Of a DNA stretch of 64,000 bases, positions 13,815 to 20,019 are shown piece after piece. A model generated the notes under the pieces. That model was not told the origin of the DNA, searched no databases, and saw nothing but the letters and a program-made list of their open reading frames with translations. The position numbers and the translations under genes are program-made. The stretch's first letter is position 1; each line of letters begins with the position of its first letter. Source of the DNA: an uncultured Gammaproteobacteria bacterium (GTDB lineage: Bacteria > Patescibacteriota > Patescibacteriia > Magasanikbacterales > UBA922); assembly GCA_964612105.1 (NCBI GenBank), contig CAZTEU010000001.1, positions 79,115 to 143,114 of the forward strand, given 5' to 3'.

Positions 13815-15311
13815 TTATAATAGTTTTATTGCTTCCTTTATTCTTTTAAGTGATTTGTCTTTACCTAAAACTGATAGAATTTCAAATGGACCAGGTGAGT
13901 TCTTTTTTCCAGACAGGGCTACCCTGGTTGGCCACAAAGTATTTCCAACTCCGTAGTCATTCTTCTTTATCCACAACATTATTGATTCTTCTAGTGCAGC
14001 AGAATTCCAACTTTTATCATCATATGTAGTCAAAAATTCTTCTATAAGACTCAGTATTTTTTTTGCCTCTTCCCTATCCCCTTTTTTCCATATAAGCAAT
14101 TCACTGGGGTACTCTAGACTATCTGCATACACGAATGCCAAATCCCTAGCAAAGTCCTGCAAAGTTGTAGCTCTTTCTTTTTCCAATAATATTACTTCGT
14201 CCAGCTCTTTCACAAATTGACTGTTCTCCATGCCAGCATCAGGAATTAGCCCTGCATTTACCATGTATGGTGCTACTAGTGAAGCCAGTGAACCTGTCTT
14301 CATTTGCCTTATATACTGCTGATTATACCAATTAAGCTTTTCGCGATTGAATACCGCGGCAGCTTTACCAACCTTTGAAATATCAAACTCCTCTATAAGC
14401 TCTTTTAACGAAAATATTTCCCTCTCGTCTCCAGGGTTCCATCCTAAAAACGAAATAAAATTTATTAAAGCATCTGGAAGATATCCTGCTTCTTTAAAAT
14501 CTTCTACTGATACATCACCATGTCTTTTGCTTAGCTTTTGCTTCTTCTCATTAACCAGTAAAGGAAGGTGGGCGTATACAGGCGGTTCCCAATCAAATGC
14601 CTTGTATAATTGGATGTGTTTAGGTGTTGAACTTATCCACTCCTCTCCCCTGACAACATGTGTGATTTCCATTAGATGATCGTCTACAACAACAGCAAGA
14701 TGATATGTTGGAAACCCGTCAGATTTTAGTAAGATCTGATCGTCCACCATTTCATTCTTAAACACAACTTCTCCTCTAACAAGATCGTTAAATTTAGTCT
14801 CCCCTTCTTTTGGCATCTTTAATCTTACAACGTAGTTGTTATCACTTACTCTCTTTTCTAAGTCTTCTTTTGGGATGGTGAATTGATTATTCATCCCCTC
14901 TCTATCATACAAAACTTGTTTCTTGGCAGTTTGCTGTGCTTCTCTCATTTTTTCTAATTCCTCAGGTGTATCAAATGCGTAGTATGCGTTTCCACTATCT
15001 ACTAGCTTAGTGACGTACTCTTTGTATATTTCTAGACGTTCAGATTGGATATAAGGGCCTTTCTTGCCATTCTGTGTGATCTTATCATCTTTTAGTGTTA
15101 CACCTTCATCAGGGCTAATTCCAGCCCACTGTAGGGCATGTAGGATGTTTTCTACAGCACCATCTACATATCTTTCCTTGTCTGTGTCTTCAATACGAAG
15201 AATAAGGTTTCCTCCTTCTTTTTTGGCAAGTAAGTATGCAAAAAGCGCGGTCCGCAGACTACCTACATGCAGAAATCCTGTTGGGCTTGGGGCAAATCTA
15301 GTTCTTATCAT
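13815..15311 (-). CDS. gltX: Glutamyl-tRNA synthetase
   Basis: HIGH-type motif (PSPTGFLHVGSLRTA) and KLSKR (KMSKS), with class I GluRS architecture. Confidence 0.9.
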   Translation of the reverse strand: MIRTRFAPSPTGFLHVGSLRTALFAYLLAKKEGGNLILRIEDTDKERYVDGAVENILHALQWAGISPDEGVTLKDDKITQNGKKGPYIQSERLEIYKEYVTKLVDSGNAYYAFDTPEELEKMREAQQTAKKQVLYDREGMNNQFTIPKEDLEKRVSDNNYVVRLKMPKEGETKFNDLVRGEVVFKNEMVDDQILLKSDGFPTYHLAVVVDDHLMEITHVVRGEEWISSTPKHIQLYKAFDWEPPVYAHLPLLVNEKKQKLSKRHGDVSVEDFKEAGYLPDALINFISFLGWNPGDEREIFSLKELIEEFDISKVGKAAAVFNREKLNWYNQQYIRQMKTGSLASLVAPYMVNAGLIPDAGMENSQFVKELDEVILLEKERATTLQDFARDLAFVYADSLEYPSELLIWKKGDREEAKKILSLIEEFLTTYDDKSWNSAALEESIMLWIKKNDYGVGNTLWPTRVALSGKKNSPGPFEILSVLGKDKSLKRIKEAIKLL

Positions 15312-15313
15312 AT

Positions 15314-16126
15314 TTATATATTTGCCAATACTATACCAACAGAAACAGCAAGATTCAAGGACTCTGCCCCTCCTTTGCCAGGAATTGTATATTTCTCACC
15401 AATCTTCTCTATCTCTTTTCTTAGTCCGTGTGACTCACTACCAAACATATATACAGTCTTGTTACTATTATTCATTTTGCTGATGTTCTCACCCTCCATT
15501 GCAAGTACACTCATATTATATTCTTCGTCCCTCAATTTATTAAGACTTTTAATGGCGTCGCTACTTCTAATTATTTTGACTCTAGAAATTGATCCCATCG
15601 TTGAGCGTACACATTTTTCATTATATGGATCTACAGAATCCTCGCTTAATAGTATATTCTCCACACCGAACCAATCTGCTGTCCTAATAATAGTACCAAG
15701 ATTTCCCGGGTCTTTTATGTTATCAAGGTATACAATTGGACTGTTATTTATAATATCTTCTTCTGTATATTCTGGCATTTCTACAATTGCCATAACTCCA
15801 GAGAAAGTCTCTGTTGCTTTTATCGAACCAATATCTTTCCTACCACAAAACTCAATTGGGACTCTTTTCTTCTCGGCGAGTTTTATTATGTGCTGGATAT
15901 CTTTCTCATCTCTTCTATTACCTTCTATTACAACAACCAGCACTGTTGCATCTTTTAGTGCTTCTTCTACCCCCTTTACACCTTCTACCAAGAACTCATT
16001 AAACTCGTAGCGGTATTTCTTTTGATGAAGTTTGGTTATCTGCTTTTTAATTTGGGGTTTTAACATAATATATCCATAAAAATTTAATAGTTGCTTTCCA
16101 TATCCTAGGAGCTCTCCAGGGTTCAC
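15314..16126 (-). CDS. SpoU/TrmH-family RNA 2'-O-methyltransferase
   Basis: SPOUT methyltransferase motifs. The 5' 80 nt overlap tagA; an alternative ATG at 16066 (MLKPQIK) reduces the overlap. Confidence 0.65.
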   Translation of the reverse strand: MNPGELLGYGKQLLNFYGYIMLKPQIKKQITKLHQKKYRYEFNEFLVEGVKGVEEALKDATVLVVVIEGNRRDEKDIQHIIKLAEKKRVPIEFCGRKDIGSIKATETFSGVMAIVEMPEYTEEDIINNSPIVYLDNIKDPGNLGTIIRTADWFGVENILLSEDSVDPYNEKCVRSTMGSISRVKIIRSSDAIKSLNKLRDEEYNMSVLAMEGENISKMNNSNKTVYMFGSESHGLRKEIEKIGEKYTIPGKGGAESLNLAVSVGIVLANI

Positions 16127-16832
16127 GTATTAGTCTCCAAAGCCATTCCAAGCCAAATCTTCTCATTATTTTAGGGGCCCTTTTTATTTTACCACTAATC
16201 ATATCAAAACTTCCACCAACTCCCATCATAACTTTGACAGATGGTAATTCTTTTATATATCTATTAATCCACTTCTCCTGTTTGTTATGTCCAAATCCTA
16301 CAAATATAATGTCTGGCGCTCTAGCTATTATATCGTCAATAATTAGATCATTATTATCTTCGCTGTGCGGGACTAGTTCACCATCAATTACTGACATGTT
16401 AGGTCCGATATTTGTACCAACGATGAAAAGACCTGGGTATATTTTGTTTAGATTATCTTTTGTATTCTCTATTACATCTTTATCTCCAGAGCCTAAAAGA
16501 TATACCCTCTTTTCCTCTTCCTGTGCAATTTTGCAGATATCTTGCATAAAATCTACACCTGAAATCTTGTTTAGCTTTCCAGAAGAAACGAACTCTAATC
16601 CCCTTCCGTCACATATATTAAGTGAGCCTAGATTTAGGGCATTAAGAAAAGAGTTGTCAATTTGTGCATCTACAAGCATTTCTGGATTAGGGGTGAATAT
16701 TGTATGCTGATCATTACTATTTAAAAAGTGGCGCACTTTTTCACGCGCCTCTCCCCTGTCGACCTCATCTATTCTTACTCCCATTATCTTCATATACTTA
16801 AAATATGTTATAATATAGCAAAATATTAGCAT
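16047..16832 (-). CDS. WecB/TagA/CpsF-family glycosyltransferase
   Basis: Family pattern (TPNPEM..., GxDFM). An alternative start at 16793 (MKIMGVRI) is possible. The annotated start codon lies inside the clpB promoter. Confidence 0.65.
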   Translation of the reverse strand: MLIFCYIITYFKYMKIMGVRIDEVDRGEAREKVRHFLNSNDQHTIFTPNPEMLVDAQIDNSFLNALNLGSLNICDGRGLEFVSSGKLNKISGVDFMQDICKIAQEEEKRVYLLGSGDKDVIENTKDNLNKIYPGLFIVGTNIGPNMSVIDGELVPHSEDNNDLIIDDIIARAPDIIFVGFGHNKQEKWINRYIKELPSVKVMMGVGGSFDMISGKIKRAPKIMRRFGLEWLWRLIREPWRAPRIWKATIKFLWIYYVKTPN

Positions 16833-16835
16833 ATC

Positions 16836-16863
16836 TTGACATAAAAATCCAGTATGTTATAGT
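16836..16863 (+). promoter_or_regulatory. Sigma70-like promoter of clpB (-35 TTGACA, 16-nt spacer, -10 TATAGT)
   Basis: TTGACA at 16836-41 and TATAGT at 16858-63, immediately upstream of CIRCE. Confidence 0.5.
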
Positions 16864-16864
16864 A

Positions 16865-16891
16865 TTATCACTCTCAGTACATGAGTGCTAA
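16865..16891 (+). promoter_or_regulatory. CIRCE inverted repeat (HrcA operator)
   Basis: TTATCACTC-N9-GAGTGCTAA against consensus TTAGCACTC-N9-GAGTGCTAA: the right arm is perfect, the left arm has one mismatch, and the spacer is exactly 9 nt. Confidence 0.75.
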
Positions 16892-16910
16892 TACTCCTAA
16901 ATACAGTGTC

Positions 16911-19547
16911 ATGGGACCTCAAAATTTTACACAAAAATCACAAGAAGCACTACAAAGAGCTGCTCAAATTAGTAATGAGAATGGACAGCCTCATATAGAG
17001 CCACCTCATCTATTTTTATCATTACTTTCACAAGATAATGGAGTTGTAATATCTGTACTAAAAAAGCTAAACATAGCTACCGCCCCACTTCGTACTCAAG
17101 TGCAACAGATGATATCCTCTTTGCCCAAACAATTTGGTCAAATGGGTAGTTTTGGGCAAATAATGATGGGACAGTCAATGATGTACATACTCCAAGTCGC
17201 ATCTCAGGAATCCAAAAGGATGGGAGACGACTATATTAGTGTAGAACACATGCTATTGGCATATTTAAAGAATAAAAACCCTATCAGTGACATGTTAACT
17301 CAAATGGGCATAAGGTATGACGATGTGCTAAAGGTTCTTGCACAGGTAAGAGGTCACCACAGAGTAGACTCACCTACCCCAGAAAGCAAGTACCAGTCGT
17401 TAGAGAAATATGGAAAAAACTTTACAGAACTTGCCAGAGAAGAGAAATTAGACCCAGTTATAGGTAGAGATGACGAGATTAGACGTGTGATGCAAGTTCT
17501 AACAAGAAGAACAAAAAACAATCCTGTACTTATTGGTGAACCAGGTGTTGGTAAAACAGCCATAGCTGAAGGTCTAGCTCAAAGAATTGTTAATGGAGAT
17601 GTTCCAGAGAGTCTTGATGGAAGAGAATTAATTGGTTTAGATGTTGGAGCCTTAGTTGCAGGTACAAAATTTCGTGGAGAGTTTGAAGAGAGATTTAAGG
17701 CTGTATTAAAAGAGGTTACAGAATCCTGTGGAGAAATTATATTATTTATTGACGAATTACACACAATCGTAGGTGCTGGCTCTTCAGAAGGAGCAATCGA
17801 TGCTAGTAACATGCTTAAACCTGCATTAGCGCGTGGTGAGCTACACACAATAGGAGCTACTACAATTAAAGAGTATCAAAAATACATTGAGAAAGACGCT
17901 GCTTTTGAGCGTCGTTTTCAGCCTATTTATATTAAGGAGCCAGGCTTAGATGATGCAACAGCAATTCTACGTGGAATAAAAGAAAAGTACGAAATTCATC
18001 ATGGTGTTAGAATAACGGACAAAGCAATTGTATCTGCTGTTGAGTTATCCGACAGATATATTACGGATAGGTACCTGCCAGATAAAGCAATTGACTTAAT
18101 AGACGAAGCTACTTCTGCTTTGCGTATGGAGATTGAGTCTATGCCTGATGATTTAGATAAAATGAAAAGAAAGATAATGAAGCTTGAAATTGAGATGGAA
18201 GCATTAAAAAAGGAGAAAGATAAGGAATCAAAAGATAGGTTAAATAAAATTAAAGAGCAACTAGAGAATATCCGCGAGGAGAGTAATGAGCTAGAGGTTC
18301 ACTGGAATACAGAGAAAGAAATAATTACAAAAATTCGTGAATCAAAGAAAGAAATTGACAAATTAAAACAAGATGCAGAAATATCAGAACGACAAGGTAA
18401 TTTACAAAAAGTAGCAGAAATTCGTTATGCACAAATTCCTGGAATTGAGATGCGCATAATAGAGGATGAGAAAATGTTAGATGAGGTTCAGGAAGGAAGA
18501 GCAATCCTTAAAGAAGAAGTAACAGAAGAAGACATAGCAGCGGTTGTAGCTAGATGGACAGGCATCCCTGTTTCAAAAATGTTGCAAGACGAATTAAGTA
18601 AACTAAACAAGATGGAAGATGACCTTGCTCATAGAGTAGTCGGTCAAGGTGAAGCTGTAAAGGCAGTCTCAAATGCAATCCGTAGATCAAGAGCTGGAGT
18701 TAGTGAAGAGAAAAGACCAATTGGCTCTTTTATATTTATGGGTCCTACAGGTGTTGGAAAGACAGAGTTAGCAAGAGCTCTTGCTGAGTTTATGTTTAAT
18801 GATGAGGAAGCTATTGTGCGTGTAGACATGAGTGAGTATATGGAAAAACATTCGGTAAGTAAGATGATGGGATCCGCGCCGGGCTATATAGGTTATGAAG
18901 AAGGTGGACAATTAACAGAAAAGATACGTAGACGACCATATTCTGTAGTGCTATTTGATGAAATCGAAAAAGCACATCCGGAAGTATTTAATGTTATGTT
19001 GCAAATATTAGAAGATGGACAATTAACTGATGCAAAAGGAAGGAAAGTCAATTTCAAAAATACAGTTATAATTATGACAAGCAATATTGCATCAGATATG
19101 ATAATGAAGTTAGGCAGAAAAGGAGAGTTTGGTTTTGAGGGAGAAAGGTCAAAAACACCAAAGGTAAAAGAAGAGAGAGTCAAGGAGAAAATTATGGAAT
19201 CATTACAAAATCACTTTAAGCCAGAATTCCTAAACCGTGTTGATGAAATAATAACATTCCACCCCCTGGGCGAAGAACAGATTAGGCTGATTGTAGACTT
19301 ACAGCTTGAGAGAATTAAAAAGAGACTTCAGAAGAAGAAAATTACTCTCGATATAAGCAAAAAAGCAAAAGATTGGTTAGGCAAAAAGGGTTATGATCCA
19401 GATATGGGTGCTAGACCACTAAAACGAGTTCTTCAAACAGAACTCTTGGACGAATTAGCCATAGAGATGATAGAAGAGAAGGTAAATAACGGAGATACTG
19501 TAAATGTTGACATAGAAAAAGATGAGGTAGTGGTTAGTAAAAAATAA
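16911..19547 (+). CDS. clpB: Chaperone ClpB (AAA+ disaggregase)
   Basis: Clp N domain, two Walker A boxes (GEPGVGKT and GPTGVGKT) and a coiled-coil middle domain. The ORF track starts at 16881, inside CIRCE; ATG at 16911 ([14 protein letters not shown], a typical ClpB N-terminus) is the more likely start. Confidence 0.9.
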
Positions 19548-19590: not shown

Positions 19591-20019
19591 TTGACTGAAA
19601 TAATCTTTTATTATAACGTAGTTATGAGTTGGGAGGGTATCATGACCACAATCATGAGCGAGTCACCACCGCTTCGTAGTGGTGATACTAGAAAGAAGGA
19701 TAGGTTCAGAGATGCTGTGTTGGAGGCTGTTCACGGATGGACAGGTTTCAAAATCAGAGAACAAGGGAACAGAAGGCCCAGGGTGTATCAGAAAGACATT
19801 CTGGACCATCTAGGCGTCTTGATTGAGTGCGTTCAACCACTGGAGTTCAAGGGAGCTTGGATTTCAAAGAATGCGCGTCTTGTGAAGTTTGTATTCATTA
19901 ACCATTTCGCTGAGTGCTTCAAGTACACGATAGTTACCTGCGACCATGGTAAAGGAATAAGACTACTCAAGGTCATCAAAGCACGCGCTGAAGTATCTAA
20001 GGGGCAGAAGAAGGGATAA
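19591..20019 (+). CDS. Hypothetical protein (GC-rich, compositionally atypical ORF)
   Basis: 142-aa ORF whose GC content is visibly higher than its flanks. No recognisable motifs. Start ambiguous (ATG at 19591, 19624 or 19645). Confidence 0.35.
   Translation: MTEIIFYYNVVMSWEGIMTTIMSESPPLRSGDTRKKDRFRDAVLEAVHGWTGFKIREQGNRRPRVYQKDILDHLGVLIECVQPLEFKGAWISKNARLVKFVFINHFAECFKYTIVTCDHGKGIRLLKVIKARAEVSKGQKKG

What the first reader, a model, noticed from the sequence alone, without database searches (positions are those of the whole stretch)
16836..16911. Canonical CIRCE operator in front of clpB overlaps the annotated start codon: HrcA-type regulation and start-site correction
TTATCACTC-N9-GAGTGCTAA sits directly after a TTGACA-16-TATAGT promoter, which is the classic HrcA operator placement, but here it lies upstream of clpB rather than groESL or dnaK. 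The right arm, GAGTGCTAA, includes the ATG the ORF track uses as the start (16881). The downstream ATG at 16911 (MGPQNF...) is therefore the more likely start. The same 50-bp region also contains the divergent tagA-like gene's start codon, so the two genes share overlapping control regions. No hrcA gene is in this window.
Basis: partly seen in the sequence, partly recalled or inferred. Interest (0 to 1): 0.5.

Follow-up and report, generated by a model that had tools for sequence, protein, structure and literature searches.

The report
HrcA heat-shock operator before clpB
A textbook heat-shock repressor binding site (CIRCE) sits directly on the promoter of the protein-disaggregase gene clpB in this tiny uncultured bacterium (Candidatus Magasanikbacteria), it is conserved in front of clpB across related lineages, and it shows that the annotated gene start is 30 bases too early; the finding is sound but ordinary.

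Summary
Window 16865-16891 reads TTATCACTC-N9-GAGTGCTAA, matching the CIRCE consensus at 17 of 18 arm bases. It is the only such site in 64 kb. It lies 1 nt after an extended-10 promoter: TTGACA, 16 nt, TGtTATAGT.

The window comes from a Candidatus Magasanikbacteria (Patescibacteria/CPR) genome. In 55 of 58 Patescibacteria-type clpB loci from other species, the only CIRCE-like site in about 20 kb lies upstream of clpB. It is usually fused to the same promoter.

The lineage encodes HrcA, but a short form of about 226 aa. Its own operon (hrcA-grpE-hsp20-dnaK) carries the same CIRCE variant. One 479-kb contig of a relative carries both CIRCE-clpB and CIRCE-hrcA.

The ClpB start correction to ATG 16911 is supported by homolog N-termini, PDB alignments and JGI's own gene call.

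The divergent wecG/tagA-like gene starts at 16793, not 16832, so its start codon is outside the element. CIRCE before clpB is not unprecedented: it is documented in Mollicutes.

I could not check whether this genome itself encodes hrcA.

Verdict: a new member of a known kind, with modest interest. The domain-deleted HrcA of this lineage is the more novel side observation.

The parts
16865..16891 (.). CIRCE operator: TTATCACTC (16865-16873), a 9-nt spacer TCAGTACAT, then GAGTGCTAA (16883-16891). Inferred binding site of an HrcA dimer.
   Evidence: 17 of 18 arm bases, unique in the window, expected 0.02; the same element lies upstream of clpB in 55 other Patescibacteria-type loci. Arm positions 2, 5, 6, 8, 9, 22, 23 and 26 are invariant while the spacer varies.
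16836..16841 (+). -35 hexamer TTGACA of the clpB promoter (P1).
   Evidence: Invariant in the 6-species alignment. Present at the same offset (29-32 nt before CIRCE) in 39 loci.
16855..16863 (+). Extended -10 TGtTATAGT of P1. The predicted transcription start is about 16870, inside the left CIRCE arm; this is inferred, not mapped.
   Evidence: The consensus TG.TATAgTA directly abuts CIRCE in the 39 loci of this promoter type.
16911..19547 (+). clpB coding sequence with the corrected start (878 aa, [14 protein letters not shown]...).
   Evidence: TIGR03346 ClpB scores 1261.7 bits against a cut-off of 1232.1. All homologues begin at this Met. Residue 15 of the 888-aa form aligns to residue 5 of the M. 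tuberculosis and E. coli ClpB structures. JGI calls the 878-aa form (P0123).
16881..16910 (+). Spurious 10-codon N-terminal extension ([10 protein letters not shown]) called by the longest-ORF rule and by the NCBI, Logan and ENA gene calls. It begins inside CIRCE.
   Evidence: The closest relative L046 (84% identical ClpB) has no ATG here, and the leader is unalignable between species.
16047..16793 (-). Divergent WecG/TagA/CpsF-family glycosyltransferase gene (248 aa). Its real start is at 16793, not 16832.
   Evidence: PF03808, E 1e-48. Gene calls of 248 aa. Homologues align from residues 1-3 of MKIMGV..., and the gltX-trmH-wecG<->clpB synteny is conserved.
16806..16831 (.). Conserved extended -10-like elements upstream of the clpB -35: plus-strand TGtTATAAT (16806-14), and minus-strand TGcTATATT (16820->16812) and TGcTAATAT (16831->16823). 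This is probably the wecG promoter, possibly bidirectional and so a second clpB promoter.
   Evidence: (I2), 32, 51 and 62: TATGnTATAAT..TAnCA is conserved in most Magasanikbacteria loci. Function is inferred only.

Best explanation
The inverted repeat at 16865-16891 is a functional CIRCE operator. It places clpB under negative control of the heat-shock repressor HrcA.

Proposed mechanism:
- RNA polymerase uses the strong promoter TTGACA-16-TGtTATAGT. The predicted transcription start (about 16870) lies inside the left arm, so CIRCE spans roughly -5 to +22.
- An HrcA dimer bound there blocks open-complex formation or promoter escape.
- On heat or other proteotoxic stress HrcA loses DNA binding. 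In studied bacteria this happens because GroEL, which keeps HrcA active, is titrated away by unfolded proteins, or because HrcA itself is thermolabile. ClpB is then made together with DnaK/GrpE/Hsp20 and GroES/EL.

In this lineage the repressor is a short HrcA of about 226 aa, made of a winged-helix domain plus a GAF-like domain. The regulon is small: the hrcA-grpE-hsp20-dnaK-dnaJ operon, clpB, and in at least one Patescibacterium groES.

Translation of ClpB starts at ATG 16911. The ATG at 16881 is an accidental in-frame codon inside the operator.

Shown here: the element, its promoter context, its conservation, HrcA and CIRCE-hrcA in the lineage, and the start codon.
Inferred: the transcription start, HrcA binding, heat induction, and the presence of hrcA in this particular genome.
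For: (1) Motif. 17 of 18 arm bases match. It is the only site in 64 kb, against 0.02 expected.

(2) Phylogenetic footprint.
- In 66 clpB loci from GTDB species representatives, 55 of 58 Patescibacteria-type loci carry exactly one CIRCE-like site (<=3 mismatches) in the 2-23 kb held for each.
- Each such site lies upstream of clpB (6-725 nt before the conserved ATG; within about 210 nt in all but one locus).
- The 8 non-Patescibacteria loci have none.
- No other hit occurs in 1.1 Mb.

(3) Arms versus spacer. The arms are conserved in sequence while the spacer and the leader vary freely.

(4) Promoter fusion. 39 loci have TTGACA-16/17-TGnTATAGT ending 1-2 nt before CIRCE. Six Uhrbacteria-type loci instead carry the -10 (TATAAT or TATACT) inside the CIRCE spacer. 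Either position occludes RNA polymerase.

(5) The repressor exists in the lineage.
- A profile of short HrcA sequences finds thousands of proteins, many about 226 aa with PF01628, several named from Candidatus Magasanikbacteria MAGs.
- The winged-helix domain matches T. maritima HrcA 1STZ at E 6e-17.

(6) Autoregulation signature. The same T-variant CIRCE abuts the -10 of hrcA-grpE-(hsp20)-dnaK operons in Magasanikbacteria assemblies GCA_003510435.1 and GCA_001784455.1 and in metagenome contigs.

(7) Same replicon. ENA ERZ27249659 contig k119_27377 (479,447 bp) carries both CIRCE-clpB (ClpB 74% identical to the window's) and CIRCE-hrcA-grpE-hsp20.

(8) Precedent. clpB and lon are HrcA/CIRCE targets in Mollicutes (PMC5138195).

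(9) Start codon.
Against: - hrcA of this very genome was not seen. The window lacks it, and I could not reach the rest of the genome. None of the 7 HrcA proteins I looked up came from the samples that hold the window's ClpB.
- No transcription start, binding or expression data exist for any of these organisms.
- The site has one mismatch, which makes the arms non-complementary at position 4/24. This asymmetric state is nevertheless common among the conserved sites (16 of 56).
- The lineage's HrcA lacks about 107 residues of the canonical protein and scores below NCBI's HrcA cut-off (147-180 against 197.2 bits). Its ability to dimerise and to bind CIRCE is therefore assumed, not shown.
Confidence: 0.85

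Rival explanations
1. The palindrome acts at the RNA level. It would form a 5'-UTR hairpin that controls mRNA stability or translation, like an RNA thermometer, rather than serving as a protein operator on DNA.
For: - The isolated repeat would fold well as RNA: -11.9 kcal/mol, z -3.5 for 16860-16895.
- From my own knowledge, CIRCE has been reported to influence mRNA stability in B. subtilis.
- If the upstream extended -10 (16806-14) fires rightwards, its transcript would contain the whole repeat.
Against: - With the predicted P1 start at about 16870, only 4 nt of the left arm are transcribed. That leader has no unusual structure (z -0.5).
- The arms are conserved in sequence, not merely in pairing. 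16 of 56 sites are non-complementary at position 4/24, and no compensatory changes occur elsewhere.
- The distance to the start codon ranges from 6 to 725 nt, so no fixed relation to the ribosome-binding region exists.
- In Uhrbacteria-type loci the -10 lies inside the spacer, so the left arm is not transcribed at all.
- There is no Rfam match.
Confidence: 0.04
2. The site is bound by a regulator other than HrcA, for example another winged-helix repressor of the lineage. In that case the resemblance to CIRCE would be convergent or inherited from a lost HrcA system.
For: The lineage's HrcA is atypical: it is short, falls below the TIGR00331 cut-off, and NCBI names it 'hypothetical' or 'winged-helix domain-containing protein'. 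No binding data exist.
Against: - The same motif sits on the promoter of the hrcA gene itself in every Magasanikbacteria hrcA locus examined. That is the classic autoregulatory arrangement.
- The HrcA recognition region (ATVRNELR.LE..GYLTHPHTSAGRIPT..GY) is nearly invariant across 59 short HrcAs and matches the canonical HrcA winged helix.
- No HspR (HAIR) or CtsR box lies near clpB.
Confidence: 0.05
3. The site is a chance palindrome or a decayed relic with no present function in this genome.
For: There is one mismatch to the consensus, and hrcA was not seen in this genome.
Against: - 0.02 sites are expected per window.
- The site is retained at the orthologous position in 55 other species, whose flanking leader sequences have diverged beyond alignment.
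- In Mollicutes, sites with up to two mismatches are considered functional (PMC5138195).
Confidence: 0.03
4. CIRCE co-regulates both divergent genes, clpB and wecG, because their control regions overlap.
For: - The intergenic region is only 117 bp, and the wecG<->clpB arrangement is conserved.
- A weak minus-strand promoter-like match (TTAGCA-16-GATAAT, 9 of 12) can be read from the CIRCE arms themselves.
Against: - The wecG start is at 16793, not 16832.
- The conserved minus-strand extended -10 elements lie at 16812-16831, 34-53 bp upstream of CIRCE. On the wecG side that places CIRCE well behind the -10, at or beyond the -35 region.
- A cell-wall glycosyltransferase is not a known HrcA target.
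Confidence: 0.08

Closest known systems
[quoted passage not shown]
   Same: - The same 9-N9-9 inverted repeat (17 of 18 bases).
- The same placement on or just after a sigma-70-type promoter.
- The repressor gene heads the dnaK operon and carries its own CIRCE in the lineage.
- The winged-helix recognition region of HrcA is conserved.
   Different: - The target here is clpB, which B. subtilis lacks. In other Firmicutes, Clp ATPases are typically under CtsR.
- Position 4/24 is frequently T/A instead of G/C in Magasanikbacteria.
- The lineage's HrcA is about 115 residues shorter.
Mollicutes HrcA regulon (Mycoplasma, Spiroplasma): CIRCE before dnaK, clpB and lon
   Same: CIRCE lies directly before clpB in a genome-reduced organism with very few transcription factors. 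The regulon is small and centred on disaggregation and refolding (PMC5138195; the lon CIRCE appears in PMC7737663).
   Different: - The phylum is unrelated.
- Patescibacteria keep one CIRCE fused to a consensus -35/extended -10 promoter, whereas Spiroplasma has tandem, decaying copies.
- No lon CIRCE was seen here.
- The Patescibacteria HrcA is the short form.
Thermotoga maritima HrcA crystal structure (PDB 1STZ)
   Different: About 107 residues of 1STZ have no counterpart. They correspond to a single internal deletion after about residue 124. From my memory of the 1STZ paper this is the 'inserted dimerizing domain'; I did not verify the domain boundaries here.

Membership tests
CIRCE operator (HrcA regulon) | 9-bp inverted repeat TTAGCACTC-N9-GAGTGCTAA | tested here: met
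   The site at 16865-16891 matches 17 of 18 arm bases with an exact 9-nt spacer. It is unique in the window, with 0.02 expected.
CIRCE operator (HrcA regulon) | Overlaps or directly follows a vegetative (sigma-70/SigA-type) promoter of a chaperone or protease gene | tested here: met
   TTGACA-16-TGtTATAGT ends 1 nt before the repeat. The same fusion occurs in 39 orthologous loci, and the -10 lies inside the spacer in 6 more. The downstream gene is ClpB, TIGR03346 above its cut-off. The transcription start itself is not mapped.
CIRCE operator (HrcA regulon) | Conserved at orthologous promoters while flanking non-coding DNA diverges | tested here: met
   55 of 58 Patescibacteria-type clpB loci carry it. 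The arms are near-invariant while the spacer and leader vary.
CIRCE operator (HrcA regulon) | hrcA encoded in the same genome | not testable with these tools
   hrcA is not in the window, and the rest of this genome could not be reached. In a relative, one 479-kb contig carries both CIRCE-clpB and hrcA. Named Magasanikbacteria MAGs also encode it.
CIRCE operator (HrcA regulon) | Further CIRCE copies at hrcA/dnaK/groE operons | tested here: met
   Tested at lineage level. CIRCE abuts the -10 of hrcA-grpE-(hsp20)-dnaK in L189, L193, L201, L205, L216, L219 and L227. CIRCE also lies 143 nt before a groES that NCBI names as from a 'Patescibacteria group bacterium' (L132).
CIRCE operator (HrcA regulon) | HrcA binds the site, and transcription is derepressed by heat or unfolded protein | not testable with these tools
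   This needs EMSA or footprinting and expression data. None exist for these uncultured organisms.
ClpB disaggregase | Full-length match to the ClpB equivalog model above its trusted cut-off: Clp_N, two AAA+ modules and a middle coiled-coil | tested here: met
   TIGR03346 scores 1261.7 bits against a cut-off of 1232.1, covering residues 6-875 of 878. The N-domain aligns to ClpB structures 6dju and 1khy.
HrcA (TIGR00331) - the lineage's repressor | Full-length match above NCBI's equivalog cut-off | tested here: not met
   P0062, P0098 and P0058 score 147, 169 and 180 bits against a cut-off of 197.2. They match in two stretches around a deletion of about 115 aa.
HrcA (TIGR00331) - the lineage's repressor | HrcA fold: N-terminal winged helix plus a GAF-like domain | tested here: met
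HspR/HAIR and CtsR operators (alternative heat-shock repressors) | CTTGAGT-N7-ACTCAAG inverted repeat, or RGTCAAA-NAN-RGTCAAA direct repeat, near the promoter | tested here: not met
   No match lies within the clpB upstream region. Window-wide hits are at or below chance.
Cis-regulatory RNA (thermometer or leader) | Match to a known RNA family, or a significantly stable, covarying leader structure | tested here: not met
   No Rfam hit at E<=1. The P1 leader has z -0.5. There is no compensatory variation.

The most novel reading that the evidence does not exclude
Several candidate phyla of Patescibacteria (Magasanikbacteria, Uhrbacteria, Kerfeldbacteria, Buchananbacteria and others) may run their heat-shock response through a minimal HrcA.

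This HrcA has lost the roughly 110-residue inserted domain that mediates dimerisation in the only solved HrcA structure. It still appears to recognise CIRCE, and it controls a stripped-down regulon in which clpB is a core, ancestral member.

If so, the protein must dimerise or sense stress differently, for example through the GAF-like domain alone. Current annotation pipelines would then be systematically missing the main stress regulator of this lineage.
Probability: 0.5. Interest if true: 0.45.

Novelty: new member of a known kind. Interest (0 to 1): 0.3.

Why it matters
- Patescibacteria (CPR) make up a large share of bacterial diversity, are almost entirely uncultured, and have very few recognisable transcription factors. 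Almost nothing is known about their gene regulation.
- This element gives a concrete, sequence-defined regulon for them: HrcA controlling the hrcA-grpE-hsp20-dnaK operon, clpB and groES. The promoter and operator architecture is well conserved.
- It can be used to annotate promoters, correct ClpB start codons (NCBI, ENA and Logan calls carry a false 10-residue extension here), and recognise the short HrcA that NCBI currently labels 'hypothetical' or 'winged-helix domain-containing protein'.
- For heat-shock biology in general it adds little. CIRCE/HrcA is a textbook system, and clpB is already a known target in Mollicutes.

Tried and rejected
(1) Looking for hrcA in sequence already held. A phmmer search with a B. 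subtilis HrcA written from memory, plus motif regexes, over all ORFs of the window and the 66 clpB loci found nothing. So hrcA is not linked to clpB.

(2) Trying to tie an HrcA to the window's own organism.
- I compared sample accessions. The window's ClpB occurs in SRR8062343, SRR9166043 and JGI 3300007759.
- Seven HrcA proteins were looked up (P0058, P0098, P0065, P0062, P0102, P0077, P0070). None came from those samples.
- The link was made only for a relative, by matching the 'longest contig' value of 479,447 between the ClpB and HrcA hit lists.

(3) A groES CIRCE in Magasanikbacteria. Locus L071 looked promising but belongs to candidate division WOR-1. Only a generic 'Patescibacteria group' groES (L132) could be shown.

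(4) RNA-level readings. Rfam gave no hit. Folding of the predicted leader was not significant.

(5) HspR and CtsR boxes. None lie near clpB.

(6) A possible third CIRCE half-site. TATTAGCA at 16824-31 is perfectly complementary to 16886-93 (I7).
- I rejected this in favour of a minus-strand extended -10 (TGnTAnnnT).
- Its variable base falls exactly at the 'n', the motif lacks the CTC of a CIRCE arm, and a mirror-image TGnTATAAT lies beside it.

(7) Literature. No open-access paper combines HrcA with Patescibacteria, CPR or Saccharibacteria in a relevant way. I could not retrieve a description of HrcA's domain boundaries.
Full report
**What is in the sequence**

- Window 16865-16891 reads TTATCACTC TCAGTACAT GAGTGCTAA. 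Against the CIRCE consensus TTAGCACTC-N9-GAGTGCTAA this is 17 of 18 arm bases, with G4->T.
- A search of the whole 64-kb window allowing 3 mismatches finds only this site. Dinucleotide-preserving shuffles give 0.02 sites on average.
- Directly upstream lie TTGACA (16836-41), a 16-nt spacer and TATAGT (16858-63), preceded by TG at 16855-56. This extended -10 promoter scores 11 of 12, the best in the region.
- CIRCE starts one base after the -10. A start about 7 nt downstream of the -10 (about 16870) would fall in the left arm; this is an inference.
- The longest ORF starts at ATG 16881, whose G is the first base of the right arm. The next in-frame ATG is 16911.

**Which organism and genes**

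- The downstream gene is a bona fide ClpB: TIGR03346 scores 1261.7 bits against a cut-off of 1232.1.
- The upstream divergent gene is a WecG/TagA/CpsF-family glycosyltransferase (PF03808).
- The closest ClpB-encoding loci among species-representative genomes are almost all Candidatus Magasanikbacteria and other Patescibacteria MAGs. Identity is 84% for the best and 70-77% for many.
- Several records labelled 'uncultured Gammaproteobacteria' share the same synteny and are evidently mislabelled.
- The window (GC 0.36) contains no hrcA, grpE, dnaK, dnaJ or groEL/ES.

**Is the repeat more than chance? Comparative footprint**

- I scanned all 66 fetched clpB loci (1.1 Mb) for CIRCE at <=3 mismatches.
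- 55 of the 58 Patescibacteria-type loci have exactly one hit. In every case it lies upstream of clpB, 6-725 nt before the conserved start codon and within about 210 nt in all but one.
- There are no hits anywhere else in those loci.
- The 8 loci from Melainabacteria-like, Armatimonadetes-labelled and Muribaculaceae-labelled records have none.
- Across the 56 sites (including the window), arm positions 2, 5, 6, 8, 9, 22, 23 and 26 are invariant, and the spacer is free apart from a T preference at its first base.
- Only the mirror positions 4 and 24 vary appreciably. The combinations are G/C in 24 sites, T/A in 16, G/A in 10 and T/C in 6.
- So 16 sites, the window's among them, are non-complementary there. 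This argues for sequence-specific protein recognition rather than a hairpin requirement.
- An alignment of the window with five relatives shows invariant blocks at the -35, the extended -10, both arms and the ATG. The leader between them cannot be aligned.

**Promoter-operator architecture**

- In 39 loci the arrangement matches the window's: TTGACA, 16-17 nt, TGnTATAGT, 1-2 nt, then CIRCE.
- In six Uhrbacteria-type loci the -35 lies 14-15 nt before CIRCE, and a TATAAT or TATACT -10 lies inside the 9-nt spacer.
- In a third group (for example L011, L028, L225) the -10 TATTAT is built partly from the first four bases of the left arm.
- All three arrangements put a bound dimer on top of RNA polymerase's footprint. 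This is how HrcA represses in studied bacteria (established knowledge; review text quoted).

**Is there an HrcA to bind it?**

- A metagenome scan for the T-variant (TTATCACTC-N9-GAGTGMTAA) returned 80 loci. Their flanking genes are overwhelmingly groES, groEL, hrcA, dnaK and clpB.
- Four low-GC loci share yidC - Band_7 - CIRCE - hrcA - grpE - dnaK - dnaJ, with an HrcA of only about 226-230 aa.
- A profile of these four finds thousands of proteins, mostly 224-232 aa with PF01628. Five are named by NCBI as from Candidatus Magasanikbacteria, but annotated 'hypothetical' or 'winged-helix domain-containing protein'.
- Their genomic loci show the same operon. These include GCA_003510435.1, GCA_001784455.1 and several groundwater metagenomes. 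The operon often has hsp20, Vut_1 and queF inserted between grpE and dnaK.
- In each of the seven distinct loci scanned, a T-variant CIRCE abuts or overlaps the -10 of the hrcA promoter.
- The ClpB hit P0203 (74% identical to the window's) and the HrcA hit P0070 share a longest-contig length of 479,447.
- Look-ups confirm that both lie on ENA ERZ27249659 contig k119_27377. The trmH-wecG<->CIRCE-clpB region is at 405-411 kb, and CIRCE-hrcA-grpE-hsp20 is at 265-269 kb.
- So at least one genome of this group demonstrably has both. For the window's own genome this remains unverified. Its ClpB occurs in samples SRR8062343, SRR9166043 and JGI 3300007759, and none of the seven HrcA proteins I looked up came from those samples.

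**The short HrcA**

- Compared with a 342-aa HrcA from the same scan, the Patescibacteria form has a single internal deletion of about 115 residues after position about 124.
- It matches PF01628 only from profile position about 80-100 onward. It scores 147-180 bits on TIGR00331, below the 197.2 cut-off, which explains the uninformative NCBI names.
- The N-terminal winged helix aligns to T. maritima HrcA (1STZ residues 15-98) at E 6e-17.
- Its signature ATVRNEL..LE..GYLTHPHTSAGRIPT..GY is nearly invariant over 59 sequences.
- An AlphaFold model from that alignment is confident (pLDDT 92.8, pTM 0.88).
- The protein is therefore HrcA's winged helix plus GAF-like core without the inserted domain. 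From my memory of the 1STZ paper that insert is the main dimerisation domain; I could not check this in the library.

**Start codon**

- tblastn matches in nearly all full-length loci begin at residue 1 of the 16911 form; the rest begin within the first six residues.
- The N-termini share M-x-P-Q/N-N-F-T.
- In the 888-aa form, residue 15 aligns with residue 5 of M. tuberculosis ClpB (6dju) and E. coli ClpB (1khy). The Met at 16911 therefore corresponds to residue 1.
- The closest relative has no ATG at the 16881 position.
- JGI's gene call for the identical protein is the 878-aa form, while NCBI, Logan and ENA aa.
- An ATG 11 nt from the predicted transcription start, and inside the operator, is an unlikely initiation site.

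**The divergent gene**

- Gene callers give 248 aa starting at 16793. WecG homologues in about 40 loci align from residues 1-3 of that form.
- Between 16793 and the clpB -35 there are conserved extended -10-like motifs: TGtTATAAT on the plus strand (16806-14), and TGcTATATT and TGcTAATAT on the minus strand (16820->12, 16831->23).
- In most Magasanikbacteria loci these collapse into a pseudo-symmetric TATGnTATAAT-n-TAnCATA block.
- This looks like the wecG promoter, perhaps a bidirectional one of the kind described for E. coli (PMC12825309 abstract). In that case it could also give clpB a second, upstream promoter whose transcripts would still have to pass the CIRCE-bound repressor. This is inference only.
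- CIRCE lies 34-53 bp behind these -10 elements on the wecG side, so direct HrcA control of wecG seems unlikely.

**Rivals**

- An RNA-level role is disfavoured. The P1 leader lacks most of the left arm and has no unusual stability (z -0.5). There is no Rfam hit, no compensatory change and no fixed distance to the ATG. In some lineages the left arm lies upstream of the -10.
- HspR and CtsR boxes are absent.
- A different regulator is unlikely, given the autoregulatory placement on hrcA itself.

**Comparison with what is known, and verdict**

- I found no paper that treats HrcA in Patescibacteria.
- The finding is therefore a correct and well-supported annotation: a new member of a known kind. 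It brings two practical corrections (ClpB start at 16911, wecG start at 16793). It also brings one more interesting by-product, a lineage-wide, domain-deleted HrcA that current pipelines fail to name.

Noticed in passing
   Followed up: partly
window 16806-16831: Conserved, pseudo-symmetric extended -10 motifs lie on both strands just upstream of the clpB -35: TGtTATAAT on the plus strand, and TGcTATATT and TGcTAATAT on the minus strand. They are shared by most Magasanikbacteria clpB loci. This is probably the wecG promoter, possibly bidirectional.
   Followed up: partly
L034, L036, L038, L040, L061 and L063 (Uhrbacteria-type clpB loci): The operator has moved relative to the promoter. The -10 hexamer (TATAAT or TATACT) lies inside the CIRCE spacer, and the left arm reads TTAGCAGTC (or TTAGCAATC). 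So the operator stays on the clpB promoter, but its position relative to the promoter differs between lineages.
   Followed up: partly
L189 6745-7734, L216 2227-3138, L219 2190-3113: In several Magasanikbacteria the grpE gene downstream of hrcA encodes a NUDIX-GrpE fusion of 303-329 aa, instead of a GrpE of about 170-190 aa.
   Followed up: no
L201, L205 and related loci: The hrcA-grpE ... dnaK operon of these genomes has unrelated-looking genes inserted between grpE and dnaK: hsp20, a Vut_1 (queuosine-precursor transporter family) gene and queF.
   Followed up: no
window 19624-20019 (+): A 131-aa ORF lies 77 nt after clpB on the same strand, with no terminator-like site between them and no Pfam match. 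It is found only in the closest relative, L046 (34% identity). It may be co-transcribed with clpB.
   Followed up: partly
L141 (metagenome contig, GC 0.61): A CIRCE (TTAGCACTC-N9-GAGTGATAA) directly precedes a clpB in an unrelated high-GC organism. CIRCE-clpB therefore also occurs outside Patescibacteria and Mollicutes.
   Followed up: no
L004, L007, L009, L012, L016 and other loci: Many GTDB representative MAGs whose record titles say 'uncultured Gammaproteobacteria bacterium' carry Magasanikbacteria-type ClpB (70-84% identity) and the gltX-trmH-wecG<->clpB synteny. The titles look like placeholder mislabels.
   Followed up: no
window 13815-16832 and the clpB loci: The gene order gltX - trmH (SpoU methylase) - wecG, divergent from clpB, is conserved across Magasanikbacteria and extends to Uhrbacteria-type genomes.
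   Followed up: partly
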